This document shows positions 1 through 33,500 of a stretch of 37,373 bases of DNA, one piece after another. The stretch lies in IMG/VR virus record IMGVR_UViG_3300006737_000072, positions 1-37,373 of that record; one strand, 5' to 3'. Made by a program: the position numbers and the translations under genes. Positions within the stretch are counted from its first letter, which is position 1. Each line of letters starts with the position of its first letter. The stretch comes from a virus (taxonomy: Duplodnaviria > Caudoviricetes). Under the pieces are notes generated by a model, which saw nothing but the letters and a program-made list of their open reading frames with translations, made no database searches and was not told the origin of the DNA.

Positions 1-187
1 AGTGCTTGTCCTCGAACCGTTCGGCCATGGCCTTCCGCTTCTTGAACTCATCCCTCAACTTCAAGACGGTGGTGGTACCCGTGCGAGGCTCGGCCCAAGC
101 CTGCTCCATTGCATCCTCGGCTCGGTCAGCAGCCAGCAACAGAAGTTGGTGGTGCTGGTACAGGTATTGGTCAGGGTGCTTACTCAT
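1..187 (-). CDS. Hypothetical protein, runs off the window edge (MSKHPDQYLYQHHQLLLLAADRAEDAMEQ...)
   Basis: ATG at 187 preceded by AAAGGAG; frame open to position 1; same orientation as the early genes. Confidence 0.75.
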   Translation of the reverse strand, partial: MSKHPDQYLYQHHQLLLLAADRAEDAMEQAWAEPRTGTTTVLKLRDEFKKRKAMAERFEDKH

Positions 188-206
188 GATCTGGTCTCCT
201 TTGATC

Positions 207-258
207 TATTCTTCTCTTCTCTTCTCTTGGTCGCATCAGAGCGTGACATCCGTCACGG
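207..258 (-). repeat. Conserved element copy A: CCGTGACGGATGTCACGC-N4-ATGCGACC followed by (AAGAG)n
   Basis: 25/30 identity by eye to 6334-6363, in inverted orientation; both copies are followed by an AAGAG-repeat purine tract. Confidence 0.85.
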
Positions 259-273
259 GCAGGGCTGCCCATC

Positions 274-310
274 CCGCCCCCTCCGCAGAGGGGACAGGTG
301 GGGAGTCGTG
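274..310 (-). terminator. Conserved GC-rich 3' hairpin after the ardC-like gene (terminator or stabiliser, no U-tract)
   Basis: Minus-strand stem CTGTCCCCTC/GAGGGGGCGG with 2 G-U pairs; 32/37 identical to 1757-1793; lies just after the stop codon at 317. Confidence 0.55.
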
Positions 311-316
311 CTGGGA

Positions 317-1246
317 TCAGGCTGTAACAACCTCCTCCTTCTTCTCGGAGGTGGCTGCCTCCTCGGTGGTCCCGAGGATCACGGCTGCCGCCTTCTCGGC
401 ACGGGTGGCCCCGTAGTTCAGGGCGGTGGCATCCTCGCCGCAGCGATCCAGCCAGTTCTTGAGGTAGGCCACGCACTGCTCCTCGTTCAGGTCAGTGCCG
501 GTGTTCGCCATGATCATGGCTGCACCGATCTCGGCCACCAACTCCTCGCGGGCGTAGTCCTTGGACCCGAAGCCGCCGTCGAGTTTGCGACCGAGGCGTG
601 ACTTGGCCCCGGTGGCGTGGCAGCATTCGTGGGCCAGAGTCTGGGCGTAGCCCTTGTTTCCGTCCTTGAACTGCTTGACCTCGGGCATGTGGATGCAGTC
701 CATGGATGGGATGTAGCAGGCTTGATCGCCGCCGTCGTGGACCTGCACACCTTCGGCGTTGCACCAGTCGAGGCAGGTGGTCTCGGCGGCGGTGATGGCA
801 TCCTCGACCGAGAGGCCGGTTACGGGGCCGCAGATGCGGTCAAGGCGTGCTTCAAGTTTGGTCAACTCCTCGGCAGGCACATCGCACTGCTCGATGTTGA
901 ACACGTTGAAGGTCTTGAACAGCGGGATACGCTTCATCTCGCCATCCTCCTCCTTGTGGAGCCACTTCCAGAAGAAGACGGTGGTGGCCTTCTCGCCCTT
1001 GCGGACGGACCCGCCGAGGTTCTTGACCTGCTTGAAGGTGAGATACCACGGGCTGGAGTAGCCGTTGAAGGCCAGCATCAGAGAGTTCATGCCGGTGTAG
1101 GGGCGACCCGTGGACACCGACCGAGGGTAGGATCGACCTTGGGGGCCTTGGAGCCACGGCAAGATCCATGGCTTGATGTTGCCGGACTCAAGGGCGGTGG
1201 TGAGGGTGGTGACGGTGTTGGAACAGTGGTCTTGGAATTTGGTCAT
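317..1246 (-). CDS. ardC: ArdC-like antirestriction/ssDNA-binding protein with C-terminal zincin-like metallopeptidase domain
   Basis: Motifs PWILPW, TGRPYTGMN, YLTFKQVKNLGGSVRKGEKA, FNVFNIEQ, HECCHATG (HExxH), YAREELVAEIGA, YLKNW; RBS GGAGTATCCCA-ATG. Confidence 0.92.
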   Translation of the reverse strand: MTKFQDHCSNTVTTLTTALESGNIKPWILPWLQGPQGRSYPRSVSTGRPYTGMNSLMLAFNGYSSPWYLTFKQVKNLGGSVRKGEKATTVFFWKWLHKEEDGEMKRIPLFKTFNVFNIEQCDVPAEELTKLEARLDRICGPVTGLSVEDAITAAETTCLDWCNAEGVQVHDGGDQACYIPSMDCIHMPEVKQFKDGNKGYAQTLAHECCHATGAKSRLGRKLDGGFGSKDYAREELVAEIGAAMIMANTGTDLNEEQCVAYLKNWLDRCGEDATALNYGATRAEKAAAVILGTTEEAATSEKKEEVVTA

Positions 1247-1268
1247 TGGGATACTCCGGGAAAGGGGT

Positions 1269-1337
1269 TCAGATGAAGAGGCCGTTGCGGTCGCAGTCGG
1301 CGAGGAATTGTTCTTGTTCAGGGGTGAGTGGGGTCAT
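1269..1337 (-). CDS. 22-aa small ORF MTPLTPEQEQFLADCDRNGLFI
   Basis: AGGAGG Shine-Dalgarno; ATG 2 nt after the upstream stop; fills the gap before ardC. Not in the supplied ORF track. Confidence 0.6.
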   Translation of the reverse strand: MTPLTPEQEQFLADCDRNGLFI

Positions 1338-1339
1338 GG

Positions 1340-1684
1340 TCAATCCTCCTGTCCGGGGATGTCATCGAGGCTGTCGAAGCCAGAGAAGAAGTTGGGGTGA
1401 GTCTGGGGGATGAAGGCCAGAGAGCGGTCAGAGACCATGCTGGCGGAGCCGGGACGGTGCAGTTGGCGGATCTTGCGATTGCCGTCAGCATCGGTATTGA
1501 TCTTGGTGAACACGGTGGTCGTGCCAGAGACCGTGTGAAACTCCAAGGTGAAGGACAGGCCGCTTGGTCGGTCGCCCGTCAACTCGATGACGGAGGGAGC
1601 AACCGGGAACCACTTGCCGAGGCCGTGGTCGCGGACCAGCAGAACGAAGTCTGCGAGGGCGGGATGTGAGTCGATGCTGGTCAT
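1340..1684 (-). CDS. Hypothetical early protein (114 aa)
   Basis: AGGAGATCCC-ATG; directly downstream of promoter P1. Confidence 0.8.
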   Translation of the reverse strand: MTSIDSHPALADFVLLVRDHGLGKWFPVAPSVIELTGDRPSGLSFTLEFHTVSGTTTVFTKINTDADGNRKIRQLHRPGSASMVSDRSLAFIPQTHPNFFSGFDSLDDIPGQED

Positions 1685-1705
1685 GGGATCTCCTGTTGAA
1701 TGTGA

Positions 1706-1734
1706 ATCATAGCAAAGTGCCAGAGGTGTGTCAA
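1706..1734 (-). promoter_or_regulatory. Sigma70-type promoter P1
   Basis: TTGACA-17 nt-TATGAT with extended -10 TG. Confidence 0.88.
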
Positions 1735-1756
1735 GTGGCTGTCAGGGCCGCTCAGT

Positions 1757-1793
1757 CCGCCCCCTCCGGGGAGGGGACAGTTGAGGGGTCGTG
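1757..1793 (-). terminator. Conserved GC-rich 3' hairpin, second copy
   Basis: Same stem as 274-310 with a different loop (CCCG vs TGCG); immediately after the stop at 1795. Confidence 0.55.
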
Positions 1794-1794
1794 A

Positions 1795-2304
1795 TCACCG
1801 GCAGAGGTCGCGGTCGCCGTAGGCATCAAATTCGGCACGTTCACGGGCCACCTCGTACTCGGATTCAAGGCGGTCCTCCATGATGCGGTCGAATGGTCCA
1901 ACAACGTGGTCATGCTCCAGATCGCCCACCACATCCTTGAGGCCACCGTGGGTTTGACTGAGGGCGGTGTTCAGGAAGTATTCAAGCGGGGTCTGGCCCA
2001 CGAGATGACTGACCTTCAAGGCCCCGTCGTGGAACACGTTGGCTTCCCAAGACCAGTTGGTGGTCATGACGCGGGCGACGATTCGGCCCTCGATTTGCTG
2101 GTATCGGGCCAGAACGTAGAAGCCTTTCCAGACCCTGACCACAGCGAGAACGTCGCCTTCGGGCCGGGACAGGTCAGCGACCATGGCATCGTCGCAGGTG
2201 AACAAGGCCAGAGATTCGTGGCGGTCCATGCGGGCGTGCTTGGCCTCAAGGAACTCAGAGGCTTTGACGAAGCAGTCGAACGAGATTGGTGCGGATGGGG
2301 TCAT
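1795..2304 (-). CDS. Hypothetical early protein (169 aa)
   Basis: GGAGTATCCC-ATG; downstream of hammerhead HH1. Confidence 0.82.
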   Translation of the reverse strand: MTPSAPISFDCFVKASEFLEAKHARMDRHESLALFTCDDAMVADLSRPEGDVLAVVRVWKGFYVLARYQQIEGRIVARVMTTNWSWEANVFHDGALKVSHLVGQTPLEYFLNTALSQTHGGLKDVVGDLEHDHVVGPFDRIMEDRLESEYEVARERAEFDAYGDRDLCR

Positions 2305-2326
2305 GGGATACTCCAGTTGGGTTGGG

Positions 2327-2385
2327 TGGCAGGCTCATCAGTCCGGGGATGCCAGCCCCGAAGACGGCCCGAAGGCCGTTTCGCC
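2327..2385 (-). ncRNA. Type II hammerhead ribozyme HH1
   Basis: GGC-GAAA-CGGCC(UUCG)GGCCG-UC-UUCGGGG(CUGGCAU)CCCCGGA-CUGAUGA-GCC-UGCCA. Complete catalytic core, GUC cleavage triplet (2365-2363), and loop I/3' tail pseudoknot. Confidence 0.95.
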
Positions 2386-2395
2386 GTGGTCAAGA

Positions 2396-2794
2396 TCAGC
2401 GGTCCATGCTGGTCAGGGCCTCGATGATTTCGTCCAGCACCCCGCATGCCTTGAAGCCGCTGGAGTGGAACAGGGAGTCGGTGTTGATCGCCATCTCGCC
2501 ATCGTCAAACTCCTCGATCATCTTGGACACAGCCTCAGCGATCTCGGCACGGGAGATGGACCAGTCGTGGCCGACCGAATCATTGAAGGCGACCTGATAG
2601 TCGGAGCCGGGAGAGGTCTGGTACAGGTCGCCCCAGATCACTGCACCGTTGTCGATGTCGCCATCCCACTTGAAGCCGTAGTCGAACATCTCGACTCCAC
2701 GGTGGGAATACAGGAACCGAATGTGGACGGCATCCTTGGTGACGGCGAGGACGTTGACTTGAAGTTGGCCGAGATGGTAGATGGTGTTGGACAT
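2396..2794 (-). CDS. Hypothetical early protein (132 aa, start revised to MSNTIY)
   Basis: GGAGTATCCC-ATG at 2794; the longer start at 2821 falls inside the -10 box of P2. Confidence 0.82.
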   Translation of the reverse strand: MSNTIYHLGQLQVNVLAVTKDAVHIRFLYSHRGVEMFDYGFKWDGDIDNGAVIWGDLYQTSPGSDYQVAFNDSVGHDWSISRAEIAEAVSKMIEEFDDGEMAINTDSLFHSSGFKACGVLDEIIEALTSMDR

Positions 2795-2816
2795 GGGATA
2801 CTCCGTTGGGATGTTT

Positions 2817-2845
2817 ATCATAGCAAAGTGTTAAGGGTGTGTCAA
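2817..2845 (-). promoter_or_regulatory. Sigma70-type promoter P2
   Basis: TTGACA-17 nt-TATGAT with extended -10; shares CCTGACAGCCACTTGACACAC and CACTTTGCTATGAT with P1. Confidence 0.88.
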
Positions 2846-2852
2846 GTGGCTG

Positions 2853-3239
2853 TCAGGACCAATCGCCCCGGTCAGAGTTTTGAAGTTGCTTCTCCTCTCG
2901 GTCGCAGAAGTCACCGTAGTCGGCATCGGACGCATCCTGCTGGATCACATCGCAGAGCGTGATTTGGAGAAAGGATTTGCCATTGCCGCCGACAGCCTTG
3001 ACCGTGTACCCGAAGGCGTTCAGGGCATTGGTGAGGCGGTCAAGGATGTAGCGGCTACCACGGGTGTTGGTTAGGTCGCAATCCACGAAGGCGGCAGCAG
3101 TACCACCGCCGGACTCGGACAGCGTGAATTTCCAGTCAAACTTGATCTCTTCGCCGCACTGGGCAACGATCAGGTTGAAGGTGGACTCGATGGCGTTTTG
3201 TATGGCGAAGTTGAATTCGGAAGGGTTGGTCGGGTTCAT
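2853..3239 (-). CDS. Hypothetical early protein (128 aa)
   Basis: GGAGTATCCC-ATG; downstream of hammerhead HH2. Confidence 0.82.
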   Translation of the reverse strand: MNPTNPSEFNFAIQNAIESTFNLIVAQCGEEIKFDWKFTLSESGGGTAAAFVDCDLTNTRGSRYILDRLTNALNAFGYTVKAVGGNGKSFLQITLCDVIQQDASDADYGDFCDREEKQLQNSDRGDWS

Positions 3240-3261
3240 GGGATACTCCAGTTGGATCAGG

Positions 3262-3321
3262 TGGCAGACTCATCAGTCAGGGCATGCCAAGCCCTGAGAC
3301 AGGCCAGTGGCCTGTTTCGTC
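3262..3321 (-). ncRNA. Type II hammerhead ribozyme HH2
   Basis: GAC-GAAA-CAGGCC(ACU)GGCCUG-UC-UCAGGGC(UUGGCAU)GCCCUGA-CUGAUGA-GUC-UGCCA. All three stems show compensatory changes relative to HH1. Confidence 0.95.
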
Positions 3322-3334
3322 GGGGAAGGGGAGG

Positions 3335-3625
3335 TCAGTCGAGAAGGAGGCCCTCCTCGAAGTGATAGACCGCAGCCTCCCACCCTGTGATGTAGTGGGC
3401 ATATCCCCACTGGGCGTAGCCGACGGCATCCATCTCGCGGCGGATTTGGTCATGGCTGACGAATGCGACGGCATACTCGGACCCCTTGCCATCTTTGAAA
3501 ACCCGATGGGCCTCTGGGGTCCACTCGACGATGATGACCCAGCCGCCATTGACGGTCTTGGATTGAAGGATTTCGCAGCCATTGAGATGGGAGGGAAGGG
3601 CAACGATTGAGGTGATCTCGGTCAT
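3335..3625 (-). CDS. Hypothetical early protein (96 aa)
   Basis: GGAGATTCACC-ATG; first gene after promoter P3. Confidence 0.8.
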   Translation of the reverse strand: MTEITSIVALPSHLNGCEILQSKTVNGGWVIIVEWTPEAHRVFKDGKGSEYAVAFVSHDQIRREMDAVGYAQWGYAHYITGWEAAVYHFEEGLLLD

Positions 3626-3659
3626 GGTGAATCTCCGGTGCCAACAGCGGCACAGTCAG

Positions 3660-3688
3660 ATAGTAGCAGAAGGTCAACCCTGTGTCAA
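3660..3688 (-). promoter_or_regulatory. Sigma70-type promoter P3
   Basis: TTGACA-17 nt-TACTAT with extended -10 TG; a small hairpin GTGCCG/TGGCAC (3638-3653) sits near the predicted transcript 5' end. Confidence 0.8.
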
Positions 3689-3880
3689 ATGGTGGGTGAG
3701 CGTTAGGTGTCTGTTAGGGTCAGACATGGCACAGTGACATCATATGTCTGTCATAGATGCTCTGAGAATGTCGATTGCCCTACCCCAAACGGGTGTCACA
3801 ATCCATCCTTCAGCCCACATTCAGGCCCGACAGCCGTACCTATCGCACACGGCGGACCATCCACACGTAGAGTAAGAGCC

Positions 3881-4590: not shown

Positions 4591-6333
4591 ATGGACACCA
4601 CTTTGGTTTCAAACATCCGTACGGTCCTTTCAGGGGCCAAGGCTCCCGAGGACTTTGGGTGGGGGCCTAATGACGTAGCGGCGTGGAAAGAGTTGATCGC
4701 TGGGGACCCCGTGGCGTTCATGACTCTTGGTGTTTGGTCTCGGCGGGTCAAGGAGGTTGATCCAGTAACGGGTGAGGACCGGCCTGCGGTTCATCCGCTT
4801 GTGCCGTTCATCCCGTGGAAGGCTCAGGCCGACATGATCTACAGCATGGTGGCGGCGGTTGAGTCTGGTCAGGACATCGCTGTAGCCAAGAGTCGGGAAA
4901 CGGGCGTGTCGGTTATTAGTACCGCCATCTCGGTTTGGGGCTGGTTGTTCAAGAAGTGGGATGTGTTGTTGTGTTCTCGGACTGAGGCTCTGGTTGATCG
5001 GTCTGGTGACCCTGATACCCTGTTTGCCAAGGTTGAGCATGTCCTCAAGTACCTCCCGCCCCAGTGGCTGCCCTGCCCGTTGCAGGACTTGCAGTCAGGT
5101 GGACGGCGGAGGCGGCACTGTATTTTGGAGCATCCTGATGGAAACGCGATTACGGGTGAAGCAACGACGAGCCACATCGGTCGTGGTGCGAGAAAGACGG
5201 TGGTGGTTTTTGATGAGGCCGCTTCACAGGATCGCTTTGAGTCTGGTTGGCGGTCGGCGGCTGACACGGCTGCGAGTCGTTGGGCGGTCTCAACCCACTT
5301 GGTGGGGTCGTATTTCACGAACACTCTGTGGGAGACTGCGAAATCTACTGAGTCGCCCGTCCCGATTCTGCTGACCTACGTCGATGACCCACAAAAGTCG
5401 GCGGGGGGGTCTTGGACAATCGACCCAGACGGATCAATCACTGGGGACCCCGGTCGAAGTTACTACTGGTCACCATGGCTTGAAATGCAACGCAAGCGGC
5501 GGGATGTGCATGACCTTCGTGAGAACGTGTTGGCCCTGCCATCGTCCCAAGGTCGCGGGTTCTTCCCCGTGGTGGACACCGAACGTCAACGCCAGCACAT
5601 CCAAAAGCCCCGTCGATGCAACGTGGTGGACGGCAAACTGGTGGATTCACCTACCGGGCACTGGCGAATCTTCATGGAGCCGGACGAGAACTCCAATCTG
5701 GTCGCGTTTATGGACCCTGCCTACGGCACTGGATCAGCAAACGCCTGCATCGTGATGATGGATACCAACCTGAGAGAGGTGGTTGCCACATACGTTGACC
5801 CCACCTGCCCCCCTTACGACCTGTCGCGAGAGATCGTCATGGCTGCCCGTTCATGGGCTAGGGGTCGCTCAGACATGCTGATCGGCTGGGAAGTCAACGG
5901 GCCGGGTTCGTCCATGCACCATGACTTTGAACGCCTGCGATGGTTCAATATCTTTCACCACAAGCGATTAGGCCAGCGAGTCGAGACCAGAACCAAGCGA
6001 GTGGGCTGGACATCCACGCGGGTGACCAAGCGGGTCCTGTTTGCTGACCTTGCCCGCGCATTGGCCGACGACACAATCGTGTGTCCTGACGAAGAGATCA
6101 TTGACGAACTGGATTCCACGGTGGTTTACAAGGATGGGTCTTTGGGTCCCGCCCGGCTGGAGGTTGATGCTTCGTCCGGTGCAAGGGAAGCCCATGGTGA
6201 CCGGGTTGTTGCTTTCGCCGGGGCTGTGATGTTGCTCGACGATGCCAACCCAGACGCTGAACGCCCAGACCCCAACTACGGAATGCCCGATTTCAGCCTT
6301 GGGAACATGTTAAACATGGATGAACTGCTGTAA
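4591..6333 (+). CDS. terL: Terminase large subunit
   Basis: Walker A-like VAKSRETGVS, Walker B VVVFDEAA, nuclease acidic motifs FMDPAYG and HGDRVVA. Confidence 0.93.
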   Translation: MDTTLVSNIRTVLSGAKAPEDFGWGPNDVAAWKELIAGDPVAFMTLGVWSRRVKEVDPVTGEDRPAVHPLVPFIPWKAQADMIYSMVAAVESGQDIAVAKSRETGVSVISTAISVWGWLFKKWDVLLCSRTEALVDRSGDPDTLFAKVEHVLKYLPPQWLPCPLQDLQSGGRRRRHCILEHPDGNAITGEATTSHIGRGARKTVVVFDEAASQDRFESGWRSAADTAASRWAVSTHLVGSYFTNTLWETAKSTESPVPILLTYVDDPQKSAGGSWTIDPDGSITGDPGRSYYWSPWLEMQRKRRDVHDLRENVLALPSSQGRGFFPVVDTERQRQHIQKPRRCNVVDGKLVDSPTGHWRIFMEPDENSNLVAFMDPAYGTGSANACIVMMDTNLREVVATYVDPTCPPYDLSREIVMAARSWARGRSDMLIGWEVNGPGSSMHHDFERLRWFNIFHHKRLGQRVETRTKRVGWTSTRVTKRVLFADLARALADDTIVCPDEEIIDELDSTVVYKDGSLGPARLEVDASSGAREAHGDRVVAFAGAVMLLDDANPDAERPDPNYGMPDFSLGNMLNMDELL

Positions 6334-6398
6334 CCGTGACAGATGTCACGCATAAATGCGACCTAGATAAGAGAAGAGAACATAAGAGAAGAAAAGAG
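6334..6398 (+). repeat. Conserved element copy B: CCGTGACAGATGTCACGC-N4-ATGCGACC plus AAGAG tract
   Basis: Inverted copy of 207-258; contains the palindrome CGTGAC-N4-GTCACG. Confidence 0.85.
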
Positions 6399-6412: not shown

Positions 6413-6721
6413 ATGTCAATGATTCGCGTCATGAACTGCTACTTGCCCCTGAATGCGATATCAGCGGTTGAGATCAAGCACACCGGGGCTGTTGTCCACC
6501 TTAGTCCCGATACTGCTGATGTTCTTTCACGCAATCAAATTGAAGTGCCGATAGATGACACGCCAGCCCTATGCGATTGGCTTGACGCGATGATTGAGCC
6601 ACCTTTGGTTTTGCACAGGTCGCTGATTGAAGAGAACACTGAGCCGGTTGAGCCAGTGGATTACAAACCGCCAAAGAAGGCTCCGGCCAGAAAGCCTAGA
6701 GGTAAACGTGCTTCGGATTGA
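6413..6721 (+). CDS. Hypothetical protein (102 aa, basic C-terminal tail)
   Basis: Fills the terL-portal gap; protein-like composition. Confidence 0.75.
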   Translation: MSMIRVMNCYLPLNAISAVEIKHTGAVVHLSPDTADVLSRNQIEVPIDDTPALCDWLDAMIEPPLVLHRSLIEENTEPVEPVDYKPPKKAPARKPRGKRASD

Positions 6722-23193: not shown

Positions 23194-24599
23194 CCCGACA
23201 AACACCTAGACGATATGGGCAAGGCAGCCCAGTTGGAAACCAAATCCGTGACAATATATCCAAGCAAGACCTTGGATCAATCATGCGGCCTGACCCCGAA
23301 ATGGGTACAAAGGACGCAGGTAAGTCTCTTGCGGCACTTCGCAACGGCGACTACCAAGGGCTTGAGGGCATTCAGTTTGGTGTGATGCAGGGCAATCCTG
23401 TAGCCATCTTGCCTGACGGTCATGCCGTGGTCATTTCTGCTGGCGAAGCAATGCAGGGTATCACCCAACGTAACAAGCGGCGGCAGCAAATCGGCGAGCA
23501 GATGGCTTACGACGAGGACGTTAAGCACTTTGCTGAGACCAACCGAAGAACCATGCAGCAACTGGTTGACGGCTTTGAGTTTGCCCCGGCTATCTCTGGC
23601 GGGTATATGTCACTGTACGAGTCCTCCCCCATGGAAACCATGCAGGAGTTGTTGCAGTATGACCGGGGCCAAAGAGAAGAGGCTACCCGCTCGCTGGTTT
23701 CCAAGCAAAGAACTGCCCGCAACAACACCATCAATAATTCCTTGAGCATGATGGCAAGAAATGCCAAGGGTTCGGGTGCAAGTGCAGATGAAGCGGGCCG
23801 CCTCCAAGTAGGCGTGGGACACTTACGCAACTTCGCTACACGCGCAGCACCGCTGGATGACCTGAACGAAGTGCTTGCCGACCCGGCTGCGTTGGCTGAA
23901 CTTCAGATGGCTTTGCAGGGGGTCAGTCCCGGCACTTTGTCAAAAAGCAAAAGGGCGTTGATCGACAACCAGCGTGACGCAGAGTTTGTTGGCGAGCCGT
24001 ATATGATGAACCCGCAACAAGACTACCCCGCGTTGCACTCTGCTTTGAAAACCATGTTTACTTCAGGCGGCATGGCAAATGCTATCAATGTAGACGCAGC
24101 AGTTGCCGCCGTTCTTGAAGCGGAGAATGTGATTGTTGACCCGGCATCCCTTCGTGCCAGCGCACGACTTGAAGTTAGCAGCCGCCTAAGCAAATATGGC
24201 ACGCCTAACAAAAGTGCGGAGCGTAAAGCGTTTGAAAAGGATGACACCAACGTACCAGATCGGTTTACGCCAAAGGGCGATGGGTACGTTGATGCGGGCG
24301 GCAGAGAATACACCCTCGAAGAAGTGAAATCTGATATTAACAAACGAGATTTTATCTCTCGTGCGATGAGTCTCGCTTCCGACTTTGTAAATCTTAACGA
24401 AATGCCTGAAAAGTATCAACGGCTCGCGGAAGCGGGCAGTGACGCACAAAAGCCACTAGTAGAACTTTACTTCTACTACGAGTCCATGCTTGACGGAAAG
24501 CGGGAAGCGGTTCAATCAGTGAAACGCATGGAAGAAAACCCTAGCGATATTCGGTCAAAACTAAAAACGATTCTTCAAGCAGCAGGATTTAACGTTTGA
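23190..24599 (+). CDS. Probable internal virion / ejection protein (469 aa)
   Basis: Helical, Cys-free, coupled to both neighbours. Confidence 0.65.
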   Translation: MTRQTPRRYGQGSPVGNQIRDNISKQDLGSIMRPDPEMGTKDAGKSLAALRNGDYQGLEGIQFGVMQGNPVAILPDGHAVVISAGEAMQGITQRNKRRQQIGEQMAYDEDVKHFAETNRRTMQQLVDGFEFAPAISGGYMSLYESSPMETMQELLQYDRGQREEATRSLVSKQRTARNNTINNSLSMMARNAKGSGASADEAGRLQVGVGHLRNFATRAAPLDDLNEVLADPAALAELQMALQGVSPGTLSKSKRALIDNQRDAEFVGEPYMMNPQQDYPALHSALKTMFTSGGMANAINVDAAVAAVLEAENVIVDPASLRASARLEVSSRLSKYGTPNKSAERKAFEKDDTNVPDRFTPKGDGYVDAGGREYTLEEVKSDINKRDFISRAMSLASDFVNLNEMPEKYQRLAEAGSDAQKPLVELYFYYESMLDGKREAVQSVKRMEENPSDIRSKLKTILQAAGFNV

Positions 24600-27500
24600 G
24601 CGATCCACTATTCGACAACATAAACCTCGACTTTGAGTTCTTAACCAGAGAGCAGGCGGCCCGGCAACGGTCTGCACCAACAGCCGAGGATATCTTCAAG
24701 TTCCTGCCGGGGATTGAGGATGTTGTTGATCGTGAAGCCTTTACAGCGGAGTACGACAAGGGCATTGCTGCGTTAATGAACTCCGACATTGATCGCATGG
24801 ACGGCTTCTTTGAAGCGTTTGGCGAAGAAATGTTTCGTCAAGAGCAGTTGTTGTTGGCGGTGGATGACCTTGACCTTAACCCCTTTACCGATGACAAAAC
24901 TGTTGAGGGAGAGACTGCGGCACGAAGAAGAGTTGTCGAAGCAAGAAGAGCCTTGGAAATGCAGGGCAAAGAGGGGGAGACCGGGGTATTTACAGCGCAG
25001 GGAGGTCGTGGTCTTGGCGAATCCATAAACGAGATGCTTGTCACGCCTGCCATCACTGCTTTTGGTGGCGGCCTTGCTGGTCTTTTTGGTGGTCCGGCAG
25101 CACCAGTAACTGTACCCGCTGGTATGGCTGTGGGGTACAAAGGGGGTCAGGCTCTTGGTGCGGCACGACTTGCTGACCGCGTTTACAACCAGTCCATGAT
25201 GGAGTACCAAAACAACCTGATGGAGGAAAACAGGAGAAGGTACATCAATGGCGAGGACATGATCTCTTACGACCTAGAAGACTCTAGGCTTTATGCTGGG
25301 CGTGCTGTTGCGGTCGAACTGATGATGGAGTTGACCACCTCAAGAATACCGGGTCTTCGCACAGTTCCAAAAGGTGCAAAAAAAACAGGAAAAGGGGTCG
25401 GCGGAAAAGCCGTCACAGACTTTACTGACGCAGAACTCAGTGCCATTCGCGGCGGAGCCAAACAACACGTTAGAAAATTTGCTGCTAACACTCTTAGGCA
25501 GTCGGGCCAAGAGGCGTTTGAAGAAGGGTTTGCAGGACTTGCCAATGATTCCCTTGCTGAATTGCAGGAGTTCGTTTCCGGCGACGAGTTAAATGTTCAA
25601 GGCCGGTTTGACGTAGGCGGGTATTTTCAAGATGCATTGCTTGGGGCAGTGGGCGGGTCTGCGTTTGGCAGTTTGCACTACACCCAACAAGCCGCCGCCA
25701 GTGTTGGGTTGCGTGCAGCCGAACGAGCGGCACTGGGACCGCAGGCAAGACAGGCCCGAGACACAGCAGCCGAAATTGCCGACATTGAATCAGGAGCATT
25801 GGAGGCGGACGCTTCTGAGTTTGGGGCTTTGAGCGAAGAGGCTCAACAAGAACGGGTTGATCAAACCAGAGAAGACGCAGAGGCCGCGAGACAAAGGGCA
25901 GCAGATGCTGGACAGCGTGCGTCTGACTTGCAGGCTGAAGCCGCAAAAGATGACGGACCCTCCATGGAGGAGCAGCAGTCAAAAATTGATGAGGCTGTCG
26001 CAGAGCGTGACGAAGCGTTTGCTGACTACAACAAGTTGGCTCGCCGGGTTCGTCTTTACAACGAAGTCTTTGGCAAGAAGGTGACAGACGCTGGCACGCA
26101 AACCGTCGAAGAACACCTTGGCAACATGAGCAAGCCCAAGACGAAGTCGGATGAAGGCGAAGCAGCATCTACGCCATTTAGCGTGCGTGCCAAGGCAGCA
26201 TACACCATTGCCGAAAAAGCAGCCGTGGCACTTGGTAACCGACTTGGCGTAAATGTAGTGTTTGTGGACGGTGGTCAAAACACCGAGAATGACTCCGCCA
26301 CTGGGTGGTTTGCATATCAAGTAGAGGCTAAAGATAGCAAGCCAACAGTAGTCCTTCGTAGTGCTGATGCCATTGGTCAAATAATCTCTCAAGGCGGGGC
26401 CAAGTCAGAAGTTGGCGCACTGTACCTTCGCGGCTTGGTGGCCCACGAGGCTATCCACGCGGTGCAGTTCTACAACCCAGAGTTGTACCGGCACATTCGT
26501 TCGTTAATGGATGACTCTCGGGTTCTTCAGGCTGCACAAAGTTACTCCAAGGACCTTTACCGAGTTGAGGGGCTGGGCAACACTCGTCCCGTGGCTCCCG
26601 GTACGCAGGCCCTTATGGCTTTGCTGCATACTGCCAACCCGGACTCTTCAGTGTTTGGCGAAGATGCCGCAGCCTTTGTCGAGGCTGAAGGTGCTGCACG
26701 ACTTATTGAAGAAGGTGCGAGAAAGTTTGACGGCAAGGTTGAAAGTTTGCTGGCTCGCATTGGATTATTGGGAGGAAAGGCACAGCATGCCCAACGAGTG
26801 CTGCGTGTTCTTGAGGCCGCCGCTGCCGAAGAAGGCGGCTTGGCCGCTGCCGAGGCCCCGGTAGGTGGGAGCCGTGCAACTTTGCTGGCGGGCATGCGGT
26901 TTGACCAGTTGCTTACGGGCGAGGCTCAGCGTGCCAAAGAAGAGCAAGAGCGTGAGGCTCGTGAGAAGGCGGCGGACGCACTTGAGGAGGAGATGCGTGA
27001 CGGGGTCACCCCTGAAGACGTAGACGCAGCCTTGGAAGAAGAAGGCATTGACCCAGACGAGGCAACCGAAAGTGATGTTGCCAAGGCCCGGATTGCTGTT
27101 GCGGTGGACAACAACATGCGTTCCGACAATCTTGCAGAGTTCTACGGGGCGACAGACGAAGAACTTCGCGTCACCATGTACCACGGAACAAGGTTCCCGT
27201 TTGCCGAGAGTGATGTCTTTGACCCATCGTTGTCAGAGTTGGGCCTGCACCTCACCGCCAACCCAATCGTGGCGAACACCTTTGCAGACTCACAACTCGG
27301 AACTGGTGACCAGCGTGTCTACCCACTGGTTGCTCGGATGGAAAACCCGTTGCGTCTGCTTGACCCAATGTCGTGGAACGAAACCACGGTTGGCGTTGGG
27401 GTCACATACGAACTTGGAATTCCTACCGCAGAAGCAATTGTTGGCATGCGACGTATGGAGGCGGACGCTTTTACAGATGTGGTGACTAGCAAGTTGGACG

Positions 27501-30500
27501 CTATGACTCGCGGCGTTCGCATGCGAAGGCTGGCTGATAAGACGGGCATGGACTTGCTTTTCAAGATTAGCGAGACTTTGCGAAATGATGGGCCGGAAGC
27601 AGCAGCGGAACAGATTCGCAAAATTGCCAACGCTCGCCAGAAAGTCATGACAAAGCAAGGCAGGGAAACACCTGTGTTTGCCAGAGAGGTTTACAACCGC
27701 CGAATGCAAAGGTACATCCAAAGCCTCGGTTATGACAGCGTTGTCTACGTCAACCGGGCCGAGATGGAAAACACCATAGGTGGAGGCACAGCCGGTAATG
27801 ACAACCTGCTTGCCTTCCCCAGCATTGCGGTGTCTGACCGACTTTCGCAAGAGGATTTGCGAGAAGAGATAGTTTCTGACGCGGTGTGGGCAGAGGAAGC
27901 CGAGAAAATGGGACTGCGTCCTGAAGATTCTCACATCGTCTTTGATGCAAATCAGATCAAGAGTGCAACAGGCAACAACGGCTCCTTCTCCTTGAATGCC
28001 AGCATTGCCAAGGCCCGGATTAGCCGACCCGGTCCCGACGTTGACTCAGGATCGCTGACATCTACGATGCTTGGTGACGTACCGCCTGAGCGACATGGCG
28101 AGTTGCTCGCGGCTGCTCAGGTTGCAGCAAACCTTGACCTTGAAGAGATCCGTCACACCGAATGGGTTGGCGAGATGCGGAAGTCGCCGCACGCCAACAC
28201 CCTGACCATTCCAACCGCAGCGGAGTTCACTGAGGTTGACTCCGAAGGCAACCCAAGAATCCGAGCGTTCCGCATTACCGGGACCAACGTGGTGTATGCA
28301 CTGAAGCGTGTTGAACAAGGGCAAGACGAAGACAACCCAACCTTTGACGGTTACGAGTGGACTGGCCTTGCGAACAACGAGACCAACGCACGCGACGTTG
28401 TTCCGATTGTTGCCGGTCATGCTATACTGATGGCGGACGGCAAGCCCGTTCGTGGAGACTACTTTGACGTTCGCAAGCCCGGATCGTTGGTCGGCAAGTT
28501 GCCCGCCTTGTATCGCCGTGTCGGCTTCAAAATCACAGGCCGTGTCGAGTTCGATCCACAGTTCTTAGACCCTGAAACATTCCCAGCACAACTTGAAGCA
28601 TGGAAGGCTGATGGCTGGAACCCGGAGTATAACTATGACGAAAGCAACCCCGAACCAGAAGCCGTTGGCGGAGAACGTGTCCCGAGCAACCTCCCTGCTG
28701 TCGAGTATGCCGTTCTTGACGGACTCTCAGAAGCAGAACTTTCAAGCATCCGTAGCGGCGGGCTTAGAGCATGGGTTGCTGTCGCCGAGCAGCGTTCAGG
28801 ATCTCCAGTCATCCGAAGCCGTGACGCTTCTCAGCAGGCTGAAGACGGCACACGACGAGTGGACGAGGGACGATCTGAGCAGCGAGATGTGGGAGATGTA
28901 TCAGGAAGACCCGCAGACGCTGTTGCAGATGGTGAAGGACGAGGAGAGCCTGATCAAGGAACTGGACGAGCAGCCGATGACACCGTTCGTCCAAGCACTG
29001 ATGGAGAGGCTCGACCTCAGCGAAAACGTCAGGGCCAAGTAAACCTCACCAAACTGGCTGTCCTTGCACAGGCAGAGGCACGCAACAAAGACGTTGCCGA
29101 ACTAGCCCGCATGATGATCGGGATGGACCTTCTGCCAGATGCAGAGTGGTATCGCCTGCACAAGGAGTGGAAAGACAGCGGCACGAAACTGGAGAGCAAG
29201 TCCCCAGAGGCTGTGGCTTTCCGCGAGTACGCTAATGCTCACGCTCGTTCCGTTGGGTTGCCCGGACGGAACACCAAGGGTTCAGGCCCTGTTGCCAAAG
29301 AGCAACGCAACCTTCTCCAGCGTGCGCTCAACTACCGCTCAATCGCCGCTGCGGGCCGCCTGAAGACTTTGCTGGGCATCGACGGGTCTGAGGTCTCGGA
29401 AGACCAAGCAGCCGATCTGAGGGCTTTGTACGTCGAAGCCATCGCTCAGGGTATTGCAGCCGTTAGTTCCAACAGTGAACTAAGTGACGCAGAGATGTGG
29501 TATGGAACCACGATCAGCAACATGGTCCGTGTTCTAAACAACCGTGTGCCGGGCCTTCGACGAACCGACCCGAACTTCCAAGAAAACCGTGTGGTCTTCA
29601 CCATGATTCTTGCCATCATGTCTAATGGTGAGAAGATCGACCGCAACATGGCGAAGGCTATCGAGGCGTTCAACACCTACGTTGAGACAGGTGAACTCAA
29701 GGCTCCTGCGGGTTACCGAGTGGGTGCTGACTTCGTCACCATCCAGCAGTTGCGTGAACACTTCGGCTCATGGACTGAGGTTGCCAACTGGATGAAGCAG
29801 CGTGGCACGGTAGGTGAAGTCAATGCCCGCATTCGCCAACTGAAGAAGGACATGGACGAGGCAGGTCAAGACAACGACCGGCTCAAGGAAATCTCTGGCG
29901 AACTGGTGGACCAAGACGGGTACAACGCTCTGGTCATCGGCCCCAAGATTGGCTCGTTCTACCTGAACATGAACGAGAACTGGAACCCCATCACCATGGA
30001 CATCTGGTTTACCAGAACCATCGCTCGGGTTGGGGGGATTACCACTCGTGTTCAGAAGCGTGCGACCTCGGACTTCAGGTTCTACCGCCGCTTGATCAGA
30101 TTGAGAAACCACTATGGCAACTCGATTGATCAAGACCGTCAATACATTCGTGAACGGGTCAGCCCCAAGCAACGCAAGACTGTTGACAACATCTTCGGTC
30201 GTATTGTCGAAGGCCGTCAGACCAAGCGGGACATGGGCAAGTTGGAGGAGTATCAGAAGGAGCATGCGGTCAAGTCTGGTGCTGAAGCCAACCGTGACGA
30301 GTGGGCCATATCGATTCACAAATACAACCCAGAGTTCCGCGACAACGAGAACCGTGCGTCCGTTCTTGACAAGGTGTCTCCGCAAGGCGAGATCGCCGAG
30401 GACTTCAACGACACGCTTGAAGCAGATCACAAGGCGTATCGCATTGCCAAGTTTAAAGAAGCAGACCCCCTAAAGAAGGTGGTTCTCACAGTGGTCAACG

Positions 30501-33500
30501 GTTACGCCAAGGACCGCGAGGCCGAGATGGATGCCCCCAACACTGGTGGAGAGCGTGCCGCCATGCGTGTCATCACCACCGAAGCGGTGGCTCGGGCTAA
30601 CGAAATCGTTGAAGAGCAAACAGGTAAGCCCGGTCGCATCACCAACGCTGCTGCACAAGCAAACCTTTGGTATCTGGAGAAGGGCATCTACTTTGCCATG
30701 GTCCAGTCCCCTCAGTACGGCGACCCTCGTGCGCAGGACTTTGCCTCAGCAGCAGACAAGGTCACGAAGGACATGGGCTTCTTCCTTGAGGGTGACGTTG
30801 ACCAAGGCGGCAGCGACCCCAAAATTGCCAAGGCTCGTGTCCACCCCGTTCTTGGCGACAGCAAGACTGCCGGTGAACACAAGGACTTCAACGACGCAGA
30901 CGGAGTAGAGGACGAGGACGCTCCCATTGCCGAGGCCGTGGTGGCACACGGTCGTATCTCCCGACCGCAACTGGAAGGCAGGCTCAATCAACTTTCCAAC
31001 AAGTTGTCTACGGATGAAGCCATGCTTGCCGAGATGTATGGCATCGCTCCGTTCATGAACGACACGCTCAAGAACATCGTCGATGAGCAAAAGGATCTGC
31101 TTGGAAGTCGATTGGGCATGTCCCCGGCACTGGCTGCTGACCGTGGCCTGACCGCTGGTCTCGCTGCCGCCAAGGCTGTTGCTCTGGCAGAGCGACGAAT
31201 GGCTCGCCAAGAAAGACAAGATGCCATCCGCAAGAAGCGTGACCAACTCAAGGCATCGGAAGCCAAGCGTATTGCCAAGTTAAAAGAAGGCTTCGCAGAG
31301 CAGAAGCAGAAGTTGCGTGACCAGTTCAAGGAGCGGCTCGCCAAGATGACCAAGGCCGAGCGAACCCGCAAGAAAGCGGCGTTGCAGCGTGCGTTGGAAG
31401 GTCGCATCAAGGCACTGGAGAATCAGGAAAAGAGGTACGAACGCAGAATCAAGAAGATGCAGAACAAGAACGCCGAGGTTGCTCAACTGCGTTCAATGCT
31501 GGTGGATATGGTTACAACCCACCTGCCCTCTGCGTCACGAGGCAAGTTCATCAAACGTCTGACTCGTAAGAACCTGACGGCTGGGCAGATGTCCAAGATA
31601 TCTGACGAGATCCTCCGCGAGTCTGCAATGGTTGACCTGCGTGGTGCGAAGCAGCGGGTCAAGGCTGCACGCAAAAAGTACGGGAAAAGCGGGCGAAAGA
31701 TGGCTAACGAGACCCGTGAGGCAATCGATGCCGACCTTGCCAAAGCGGAGCAACTCCTTACCACCGACCTAACCGAGATGGACTACGAGAGCATCCGTCG
31801 CTTGGCTGGCGAGGTAGAGGCACTGATCGGTGAAGCCAACGGGAAGTACGACGCTGACCGTGAGTCTTTCAAGGATGAGAAGAATCCGAGAAGCCAAGGC
31901 ATCATGACTCGAATCGAGGCGGTGCTTGACTTCTTGGTGGATCGTCCGGGCAAGCCTCGCAAGGGTCGTGCGATTGGCACTCGTAGGGCTGGAGAACTGG
32001 CAGGCGGGCTTGGTCGCAACGGTGGCTTGGACCTTCGGGCCGCCCTGTCCCTGATCGGATTGAAGGGTGAACACAAGTTGTTGACCCGTGCCGAGGACAG
32101 AAAGAAGTTGGATGCCCGCGAGTTGATCGAGGTTACCAACGCCGTCCTGCGTGAGTATGGCTACCGCAACCTGCAAGACTTTGTTGCCCGCACCTCCGGC
32201 AGTAAGGGCCTTGGTCGCCAAGAGTTTGTTGACTTCACCTACCGGGATAAAGAGGGTGACATTCAGGTGGTGACCCTGTCCTTGGGTCAGGCAATGAAGT
32301 TGCTTGCCATGGACGAACACACCATGGAGCAACTGCGAAAGCAGAATCGCAAAGACCCAACCAAGGTGCAGGAGATTGCGTTCACCAACGTGACCCAGCC
32401 TGTTGAGGGCGGCGAGTCAATCTTTGGATTTGACTTGGCGACAGACATCGAGACCTTCCGCGAGCAGATGCTTGACGAACGTCCAGAGTTGCATGAGATC
32501 ATCATGCGTCTGAAGGATGTCCGCAACAAGTTGCTTAAGCCAAAGGCTATGGCTGCCTTGTTCCGTCTGACCGGCAACACTCCCCCGTCCACCGAAGACT
32601 ACGAGCCACGCAAGATTCGCATGGACTCCCCCGCCGTCAAGGATGAGGACCAGATCGCACAGATGGCAAACGCTGGTACGGTTGGCCCTCGGTTTGCCGA
32701 GAACGCAGGCATGACCATTCGCCGTACGGGCGGGGGGGTTACCTTGGTCGGCGACTTCATGGGTGACTACATGGAGCATGCCGAGAACTCTCTCAACCTT
32801 GCACACATGGCGGAGCCAACCCGAATCCTGTGGTCAGTCCTGAGCGACCGGGAGGCAGGGGAAGCAATCGCCCGAGTTTACGGCGACGAGTACCTGTCCA
32901 ACCTTCGTATTCAAATCGGGTACGGCACTGGCCTGCTGCAAGCCAACATGGATGCTGGCCCGCTCGGTGAGATTGTTGCGATGGCTGCTGGGTCCGCCAT
33001 TGCCCTGAACGACATGACCTTCTTCAAGGTTCTGTTCGGGGGGCTGAACAATATGTTTCTGTCCCCGGACATCTCAGTTGCTCAGGCTATCACCGGCATC
33101 ACTCGTGCTTTTGAGTTGGTTGCGACGGGGCGACTGAACAACTTCATGGAGGAGAAGGTCTACCCCAACAGTGGTTATATGTGGGATCGAGACCACGCCT
33201 CCCACGTTGACCGCCGTGTTGTCTTCACCCGTGAGGATGGTCTTGCCAACGAAAAGGATCTTGCATCCTTCACTGATATCATGGAGTCCACGCTCACCTC
33301 CATGGGTGGGTTGATGGAGTCACTGGCCTCCGGCAACTTGTCCGAGACCAAGACGCACCTCAACGATATTCGCAAGGCTGTGTCCGGAATCAGCAAAGCG
33401 ATTCCCGTGTTGCGAGTGCTTGATCGTGTGATTCAGGCAGCCGCCGTTCTTTCCCAAGCAGACGCAGCGTCCATCACCAAAGAAGATGTGTTGGCTGGTG

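What the first reader, a model, noticed from the sequence alone, without database searches (positions are those of the whole stretch)
2304..3335. Two intact type II hammerhead ribozymes cut the early mRNA between genes, each exactly 58 nt upstream of a start codon
Seen: both elements (2327-2385 and 3262-3321, minus strand) have the full CUGAUGA/GAAA/GUC core and a loop I UGGCA : 3' UGCCA pseudoknot. Their stems differ but stay paired (stem II GGC/GCC vs GAC/GUC; stem III CGGCC vs CAGGCC; stem I UUCGGGG vs UCAGGGC). Each begins 10-13 nt after an upstream stop, and the predicted cuts (2363/2362 and 3298/3297) both leave a 58-nt leader ending CCAACUGGAGUAUCCC-AUG. Known: pseudoknotted type II hammerheads occur in bacterial and phage DNA, cleavage leaves a 5'-OH, and their function is mostly unknown. 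Inference: the phage self-processes bicistronic early mRNAs so the second gene gets a standardised 5'-OH, hairpin-capped leader, uncoupling its stability and translation from the first gene without host RNases.
Basis: partly seen in the sequence, partly recalled or inferred. Interest (0 to 1): 0.9.

Follow-up and report, generated by a model that had tools for sequence, protein, structure and literature searches.

The report
Hammerhead spacers between phage early genes
Two intact hammerhead ribozyme sequences sit between small genes of an uncultured marine phage and likely cut its early message into pieces with protected ends; this layout has been known since 2011, and sister phages fill the same slot with a different, uncatalogued RNA hairpin.

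Summary
Both elements match Rfam Hammerhead_II (40.0 and 31.4 bits; cut-off 37), core and stems are intact, and predicted cuts at 3298/3297 and 2363/2362 each lie 58 nt before an ATG. The equal 58 is inherited: the copies are duplicates (51 of 61 bases identical), relatives give 57-59, and 57 phage hammerheads of this subtype have median 58 (IQR 53-60). 'Bicistronic' is unsupported: no terminator was found. Tandem type II hammerheads around prophage genes, and their proposed role in processing long messages, were published in 2011; this scan has noted the layout on other DNA. Added here: relatives shuffle genes between these spacers; one gene is promoter-led here but hammerhead-led in a relative; and four complete sister genomes lack hammerheads but carry a covarying ~51-nt hairpin (two copies in this window, no Rfam match) in the same stop-to-RBS slot, sometimes behind the same gene. 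Best reading: cleavage likely gives each cassette a hairpin-capped 5'-OH leader and a hairpin-capped upstream 3' end. Cleavage and any effect on expression are untested; no RNA run was listed. New member of a known kind; the hairpin is the better lead.

The parts
3660..3688 (-). Promoter-like site P1 (TTGACA-17-TACTAT)
   Evidence: also present in L121 and L145
3335..3625 (-). ORF96, unknown function; homologues are followed by a hammerhead (window, L145) or the hairpin element (L143, L155)
3262..3321 (-). Hammerhead HH1, type II, loop-I/3'-tail pseudoknot; predicted cut 3298/3297
3237..3249 (-). Shared RBS-start motif GGAGTATCCCATG (also 2792-2804 and 2302-2314; 2-mismatch copy 1245-1257)
2853..3239 (-). 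ORF128, unknown function, downstream of HH1
   Evidence: no family, no Atlas hit
2817..2845 (-). Promoter-like site P2 (TTGACA-17-TATGAT), starting 7 nt after the ORF128 stop; P2 and ORF132 are absent from L121
2396..2794 (-). ORF132, unknown function; promoter-led here, hammerhead-led in L145
2327..2385 (-). Hammerhead HH2, type II, loop-I/3'-tail pseudoknot; predicted cut 2363/2362
1795..2304 (-). ORF169, unknown function, downstream of HH2
1743..1793 (-). Uncatalogued irregular hairpin element ('D5'), copy a, 1 nt after the ORF169 stop and just before P3
1706..1734 (-). Promoter-like site P3 (TTGACA-17-TATGAT)
317..1246 (-). ArdC-like anti-restriction protein (ArdcN plus MPTase-PolyVal)
260..310 (-). 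Hairpin element D5, copy b, just after the ardC stop

Best explanation
Two type II hammerhead sequences form swappable spacers between small genes of a marine phage, and they likely self-cleave to cut the predicted early message into gene-sized pieces whose new ends would both be hairpin-capped. Shown: sequence, fold, position between a stop codon and an RBS, compensatory changes, and exchange of flanking genes among relatives. Inferred: (1) P1-P3 drive read-through early transcripts; (2) each ribozyme cuts after GUC; (3) with only a 3-bp stem II joining them the halves part; (4) the downstream piece starts with a 5'-OH at the base of the 7-bp stem I hairpin, with about 22 nt to the start codon, and the upstream piece ends in the stem III hairpin with a 2',3'-cyclic phosphate; (5) this makes each gene's mRNA ends independent of its neighbours, which suits an array whose genes are often swapped, and probably slows 5'-end-dependent decay as RiboJ does in E. 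coli. The repeats probably double as recombination points.
For: RF02276 match and intact core. Among 6 copies from this phage group, 98.3% of cells pair and 5 of 20 pairs change on both sides, 4 of them in stem I; slid controls give 29-45%. Of 106 unique viral matches to the pseudoknot pattern, 58 have a full type II fold and 55 of these 58 have an open start within 40 nt of the pseudoknot, against 13 of 48 core-less matches. ORF132 is promoter-led in the window and hammerhead-led in L145, so a ribozyme can stand where a transcription start stands. Population contigs join across spacers in the L121-like and L145-like orders and pile up on spacers. Published: three ~2-kb tandem-hammerhead prophage RNAs cleaved in vitro, one in E. 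coli; HF2 transcript 5' end maps within 3 nt of its hammerhead site (PMC3088659 sections 6, 11). RiboJ raised mRNA about twofold and protein two- to tenfold (PMC6206723 passages). 5' structure stabilises mRNA (PMC3997798 passages).
Against: No cleavage or expression data for this phage. Four of 4 complete sister genomes (79% terminase identity) have no hammerhead above cut-off, so the ribozyme is dispensable in the group. Nested folding does not give the active fold as the minimum (-20.8 vs -25.3 and -21.4 vs -26.6 kcal/mol, pseudoknot energy not counted), and the z-scores are unremarkable. The pseudoknot pairs never vary in the 6 copies, so they have no covariation support here. A 5'-OH is not protective everywhere (glmS/RNase J1, PMC3997798). 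HH1 is below Rfam's cut-off. The host is unknown (best terminase matches 28-34%).
Confidence: 0.58

Rival explanations
1. The ribozymes cut, but to lower or time-limit expression: the 5'-OH piece is degraded quickly, as with glmS, keeping toxic early proteins short-lived.
For: RNase J1 degrades the 5'-OH glmS product (PMC3997798 passage). Downstream genes are of unknown function and could be host-takeover proteins.
Against: The 5'-OH sits at the first pair of a 7-bp stem; the same gene is led by a near-consensus promoter in the window and a hammerhead in L145, which fits a supply role better.
Confidence: 0.12
2. The spacers matter mainly as DNA repeats for cassette shuffling, or spread as hitch-hikers on a good RBS module; cleavage is tolerated and has little effect.
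For: Gene order differs between close relatives at these spacers; population joints fall at the repeats; sister genomes lack hammerheads.
Against: Compensatory changes keep stems paired while lowering DNA identity; unrelated phages keep the same fold and position.
Confidence: 0.15
3. Cleavage is a translation switch: an upstream CCUCC hides the RBS until the cut removes it.
For: The HH1 precursor pairs upstream CUCC with GGAG in the predicted fold; predicted SD accessibility rises from 0.18-0.28 to 0.36-0.44.
Against: Only 4 bp; HH2 shows no clear change (0.23-0.36 to 0.34-0.35); a CTCC/TCCT motif lies within 25 nt upstream in only 10 of 58 phage hammerheads.
Confidence: 0.08
4. The 935-nt piece between the two cuts (5'-OH and cyclic-phosphate ends) is ligated into a circular mRNA.
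For: The ends are chemically compatible and the chimeric stem II (GGC with GUC) can pair (sequence); spacing 935.
Against: Perreault et al. looked for circular or spliced products in tandem arrangements and found none (PMC3088659 section 6); L145 holds only one hammerhead in its fetched early region.
Confidence: 0.05

Closest known systems
Type II hammerhead ribozyme with loop-I/3'-tail pseudoknot (Rfam RF02276; Perreault et al. 2011, PMC3088659, sections 6 and 11 part 1 and passages read)
   Same: Topology, core, pseudoknot, short stem II, clustered between phage genes of changing identity, near an anti-restriction gene, proposed cutting of long phage RNAs into gene-length mRNAs.
   Different: Nothing in the fold. 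The anti-restriction gene is ArdC, two genes away, rather than an adjacent ardA. Here the population shows gene swapping and replacement by promoters or another hairpin.
Streptomyces phage R4 (NC_019414.1) hammerhead cluster
   Same: Seven RF02276 hits above cut-off in 5.1 kb of small genes that include an annotated OCR-like antirestriction gene; one is 75.5% identical to HH2 and precedes an RBS.
   Different: Cultured soil phage with a known host, so testable; unrelated genes.
RiboJ insulator (PMC6206723, passages read)
   Same: Ribozyme cut gives a standard hairpin-led 5' end ahead of the RBS and raises expression: a working analogue.
   Different: Engineered, sTRSV-derived, placed after a promoter rather than between genes, with an added hairpin.
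Phage T7 RNase III processing signals such as R1.1 (PMC6121014, passages read)
   Same: A ~60-nt structured spacer between early genes that is cut; an analogue for the hammerheads' role and a candidate model for the D5 hairpin.
   Different: Cut by a host enzyme; R1.1 has a 4x5 internal loop, D5 a 1x2 loop and single mismatches.

Membership tests
Hammerhead ribozyme type II (RF02276) | Core CUGANGA, GAAA and NUH cleavage triplet | tested here: met
   CUGAUGA, GAAA, GUC in both copies
Hammerhead ribozyme type II (RF02276) | Stems I and III closed by loops, stem II open | tested here: met
   compensatory changes in stems I and II
Hammerhead ribozyme type II (RF02276) | Pseudoknot between loop I and the tail 3' of stem II | tested here: met
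   5 complementary pairs in 6 of 6 group copies, but invariant, so no covariation
Hammerhead ribozyme type II (RF02276) | Score above Rfam gathering threshold (37 bits) | tested here: inconclusive
   HH2 40.0 passes; HH1 31.4 does not, though its core and stems are intact
Hammerhead ribozyme type II (RF02276) | Self-cleavage at the NUH site | not testable with these tools
   needs in vitro assay or RNA end mapping; no RNA holder listed
Clustered phage/prophage hammerheads flanking genes | Two or more ribozymes in the sense strand flanking single genes or short gene blocks of varying identity | tested here: met
RNase III processing signal (for D5) | About two turns of irregular duplex between genes (recalled) | tested here: inconclusive
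   17 pairs over a rod with a 10-11 bp top stem, one 1x2 loop and three mismatches; fits in size only
RNase III processing signal (for D5) | Cleavage by RNase III | not testable with these tools
   needs enzyme assay
Known Rfam families (for D5) | Covariance-model match | tested here: not met
   no hit at E<=1 in the window or E<=2 in five relatives
Intrinsic terminator (for D5) | GC hairpin followed by a U tract | tested here: not met
   not called; 3' flanks lack U runs

The most novel reading that the evidence does not exclude
The stop-to-RBS slot is a general RNA-cutting slot, and the ~51-nt D5 hairpin that replaces the hammerhead in sister phages (invariant U-G pairs and C-C and A-C mismatches, compensatory stems, no Rfam match) is a new class of self-cleaving ribozyme, giving a natural side-by-side swap of two ribozyme classes behind the same genes. 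The tamer version, a host RNase III site interchangeable with a ribozyme, is about three times likelier.
Probability: 0.1. Interest if true: 0.85.

Novelty: new member of a known kind. Interest (0 to 1): 0.3.

Why it matters
The purpose of the many self-cleaving ribozymes beside phage genes is still open (PMC6765202 passages). This phage group offers natural controls: the same gene led by a promoter or a hammerhead, and the same gene followed by a hammerhead or by an unrelated hairpin. These allow a direct test of whether the ribozyme's job is to make a new protected mRNA end. The hammerheads themselves are ordinary; the D5 hairpin is a cheap candidate for a new processing element.

Tried and rejected
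RNA evidence: no RNA holder listed among 24 runs; the 8 runs laid were DNA-type contigs, and X13 and X14 give near-identical tables, probably one data set. '58 nt is a tuned length': rejected. RBS-unmasking switch: weak. Function of the downstream genes: no PHROG or Pfam family for any of the five small ORFs at 1340-3625 and no Atlas hit for ORF169 or ORF128. Host: not found. D5 outside this phage group: two viral pattern scans gave 16 and 15 loci on the same 11 contigs; a loose pattern in bacterial genomes gave 120 loci from 25 of 64 parts of the collection, and of the 100 rescored with model R1 only two reached 20-23 bits, read as chance; no R1 hit in the 52 hammerhead-pattern loci searched; no blastn match in cultured phages. 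These searches are narrow and do not prove absence. Type I/III hammerheads in sister genomes: a CTGANGA..GAAA pattern gave only scattered matches that I did not fold, so this is not excluded. By eye D5 showed no pistol, twister, twister-sister, hairpin or HDV consensus (recalled motifs; not a test). Paper searches found no functional test of intergenic phage hammerheads in an infection; the library lacks most subscription papers, and I did not open supplements (Dataset S1 of PMC3088659 could hold related sequences).

Full report
Setting. The window is one 37,373-base virus record with terminase, portal, capsid and tail genes on the + strand and replication genes and small ORFs on the - strand. 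The best-matching public runs are marine metagenomes, two of which may be the source. The region 1-3700 carries three near-consensus sigma-70 promoter-like sites on the - strand (3688, 2845, 1734), five small ORFs of no known family and an ArdC-like anti-restriction gene. 'Early region' is my inference from these features. The host is unknown: cultured phages match the terminase at only 28-34%.

Observation. Rfam finds two matches in the window, both Hammerhead_II: 2386-2324 (40.0 bits) and 3322-3259 (31.4 bits; cut-off 37). My structural scan finds the same two, with the first base after the cut at 2362 and 3297, and none in 200 shuffles.

The 58 nt. The two elements are a duplicated module: 80% identical over 81 nt without gaps, 51 of 61 from cut to ATG. 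Close relatives have 59, 57 and 57 (L107, the same contig as L121) and 58 (L145), and population contigs have 1-nt deletions in the spacer. A viral scan for the pseudoknot pattern gave 117 loci with 106 unique matches; 58 have a full type II fold. In 55 of 58 an open start lies within 40 nt of the pseudoknot, against 13 of 48 core-less matches; leader median 58, IQR 53-60, exactly 58 in 4 of 57. Limits: the pattern itself nearly fixes 36 of those bases, the set includes this phage's two copies and other near-duplicates, the start caller is crude (about five short leaders look miscalled), and only 29 of the 55 had a recognisable SD. So about 36 nt of ribozyme plus about 22 nt of RBS spacer is the geometry of the subtype, not a special feature here.

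Conservation. Six copies from this phage group pair in 98.3% of cells; 5 of 20 pairs change on both sides (4 in stem I, 1 in stem II); shuffles reach the covariation score in 0 of 500 and slid controls pair at 29-45%. The copies are related, so these are not probabilities. The five pseudoknot pairs never vary. Nested folding does not place the active fold at the minimum, as may be expected when the pseudoknot is not counted, but it is a result against easy folding.

Modularity. Terminase relatives (13 viral and 14 metagenome loci; 10 with upstream DNA mapped) show that spacers stay and genes change. L121 has three hammerheads behind P1 and lacks P2 with ORF132; L145 has one hammerhead, directly before the ORF132 homologue that is promoter-led in the window. 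Contigs of public runs join 2383 to 2884 and 2810 to 2325, matching those two orders, and summed depth peaks on the spacers (depth is not copy number, and the informative runs may be one or two data sets). No terminator-like site lies on the - strand in 1-3700, so read-through polycistronic RNA is likelier than two bicistronic units.

A second spacer. The window holds another repeat at 1793-1743 and 310-260 (family D5), each just behind a stop codon. Fifteen distinct copies form an irregular rod: 17 pairs, 99.2% of cells paired, 4 pairs with changes on both sides, two invariant U-G pairs, and C-C and A-C mismatches. It has no Rfam match and no U tract. Four of 4 complete sister genomes (79% terminase identity) have no RF02276 hit above cut-off but 1-3 D5 copies each; a fifth, partial record with 38% terminase identity has one strong and one weak copy. 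Most copies lie between a stop and an RBS, some before a promoter. Two gene families are followed by a hammerhead in one phage and by D5 in another; I found no gene preceded by a hammerhead in one phage and by D5 in another. D5 resembles in size and position the T7 RNase III signal R1.1 (PMC6121014 passages); it could also be a protective hairpin or, less likely, a new ribozyme, against which stands its simple unbranched fold. Sister phages also place short hairpins right after their promoter-like sites, which fits a general need for structured 5' ends.

Mechanism. By established hammerhead chemistry the cut after GUC leaves a 5'-OH and a 2',3'-cyclic phosphate (PMC6765202 passage). In type II topology stem III stays with the upstream piece and stem I with the downstream piece, joined only by the 3-bp stem II; so I infer that the halves part and both new ends are hairpin-capped. 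5' structure slows RNase E/RppH-dependent decay (PMC3997798 passages), and RiboJ raises mRNA about twofold and protein two- to tenfold (PMC6206723 passages). Against: RNase J1 degrades the 5'-OH glmS product. Predicted RBS release is small for HH1 and absent for HH2. I put processing into insulated, end-protected pieces at 0.58, neutral or recombination repeat 0.15, decay 0.12, RBS switch 0.08, circles 0.05; that the elements cleave at all, about 0.9.

Prior knowledge. Perreault et al. 2011 (PMC3088659; sections 6 and 11 part 1 and passages read) described type II hammerheads, the pseudoknot, clusters flanking prophage genes of varying identity including ardA, cleavage of three ~2-kb tandem constructs, and the processing hypothesis, and detected no circles. 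Weinberg et al. 2019 (PMC6765202, passages) state that the purpose remains undefined. PMC5737381 was seen in passages only; other papers only as search listings. Streptomyces phage R4 has seven RF02276 hits above cut-off in 5.1 kb and is a tractable test system. Notes from this scan report the same layout, and uncatalogued RNAs in the same slot, on other genomes; a look-up with the D5 sequence found no look-alike, so I cannot say whether D5 is one of those. I noted D5 before reading them.

Verdict. Real, correctly described, and a new member of a known kind. Interest 0.3, carried mostly by the natural swaps and the D5 hairpin.

Noticed in passing
window 1743-1793 and 260-310 (-): Uncatalogued ~51-nt irregular hairpin with compensatory changes that fills the stop-to-RBS slot in hammerhead-free sister phages.
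   Followed up: partly
L119 ~4880-5030 (+), same contig as L121 and L107: About 130 nt of GC-rich leader between promoter P1 and the first hammerhead, with no RBS-led ORF called; cleavage would release it as a free RNA.
   Followed up: no
L143 ~1830-2061 (-): A D5 copy broken by an insert of about 190 nt that holds two tRNA T-arm-like stretches by eye; no Rfam hit there.
   Followed up: no
L127, L129, L130, L138, L143 early regions: Short GC hairpins start right after TATAAT-type promoter-like sites and just before the RBS.
   Followed up: no
window 205-274 and 6318-6397: AAGAG-repeat tracts upstream of genes, forming a 70-nt, 76% inverted pair 6 kb apart; repeat number varies in the population.
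   Followed up: no
window 24596-34324 (+): 3242-aa protein with a weak ART-PolyVal ADP-ribosyltransferase domain, otherwise unannotated.
   Followed up: no
L119 ~6560-6600 (+): After D5 the promoter is cut down to its -35 box and runs straight into the RBS, so this D5 copy leads a gene that P3-like promoters do not.
   Followed up: no
L007, L065, L099: Matches with the same UGGCA/UGCCA arms but GAAAC 3' of the core, probably type I permutations before an RBS.
   Followed up: no
L149 769-824 (-): Weak (26 bits) D5-like hairpin in the same stop-to-RBS slot of a distant phage.
   Followed up: no
L289 (Streptomyces phage R4): Three of seven hammerhead hits overlap annotated CDS starts or tiny CDSs, suggesting mis-annotated starts.
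   Followed up: no
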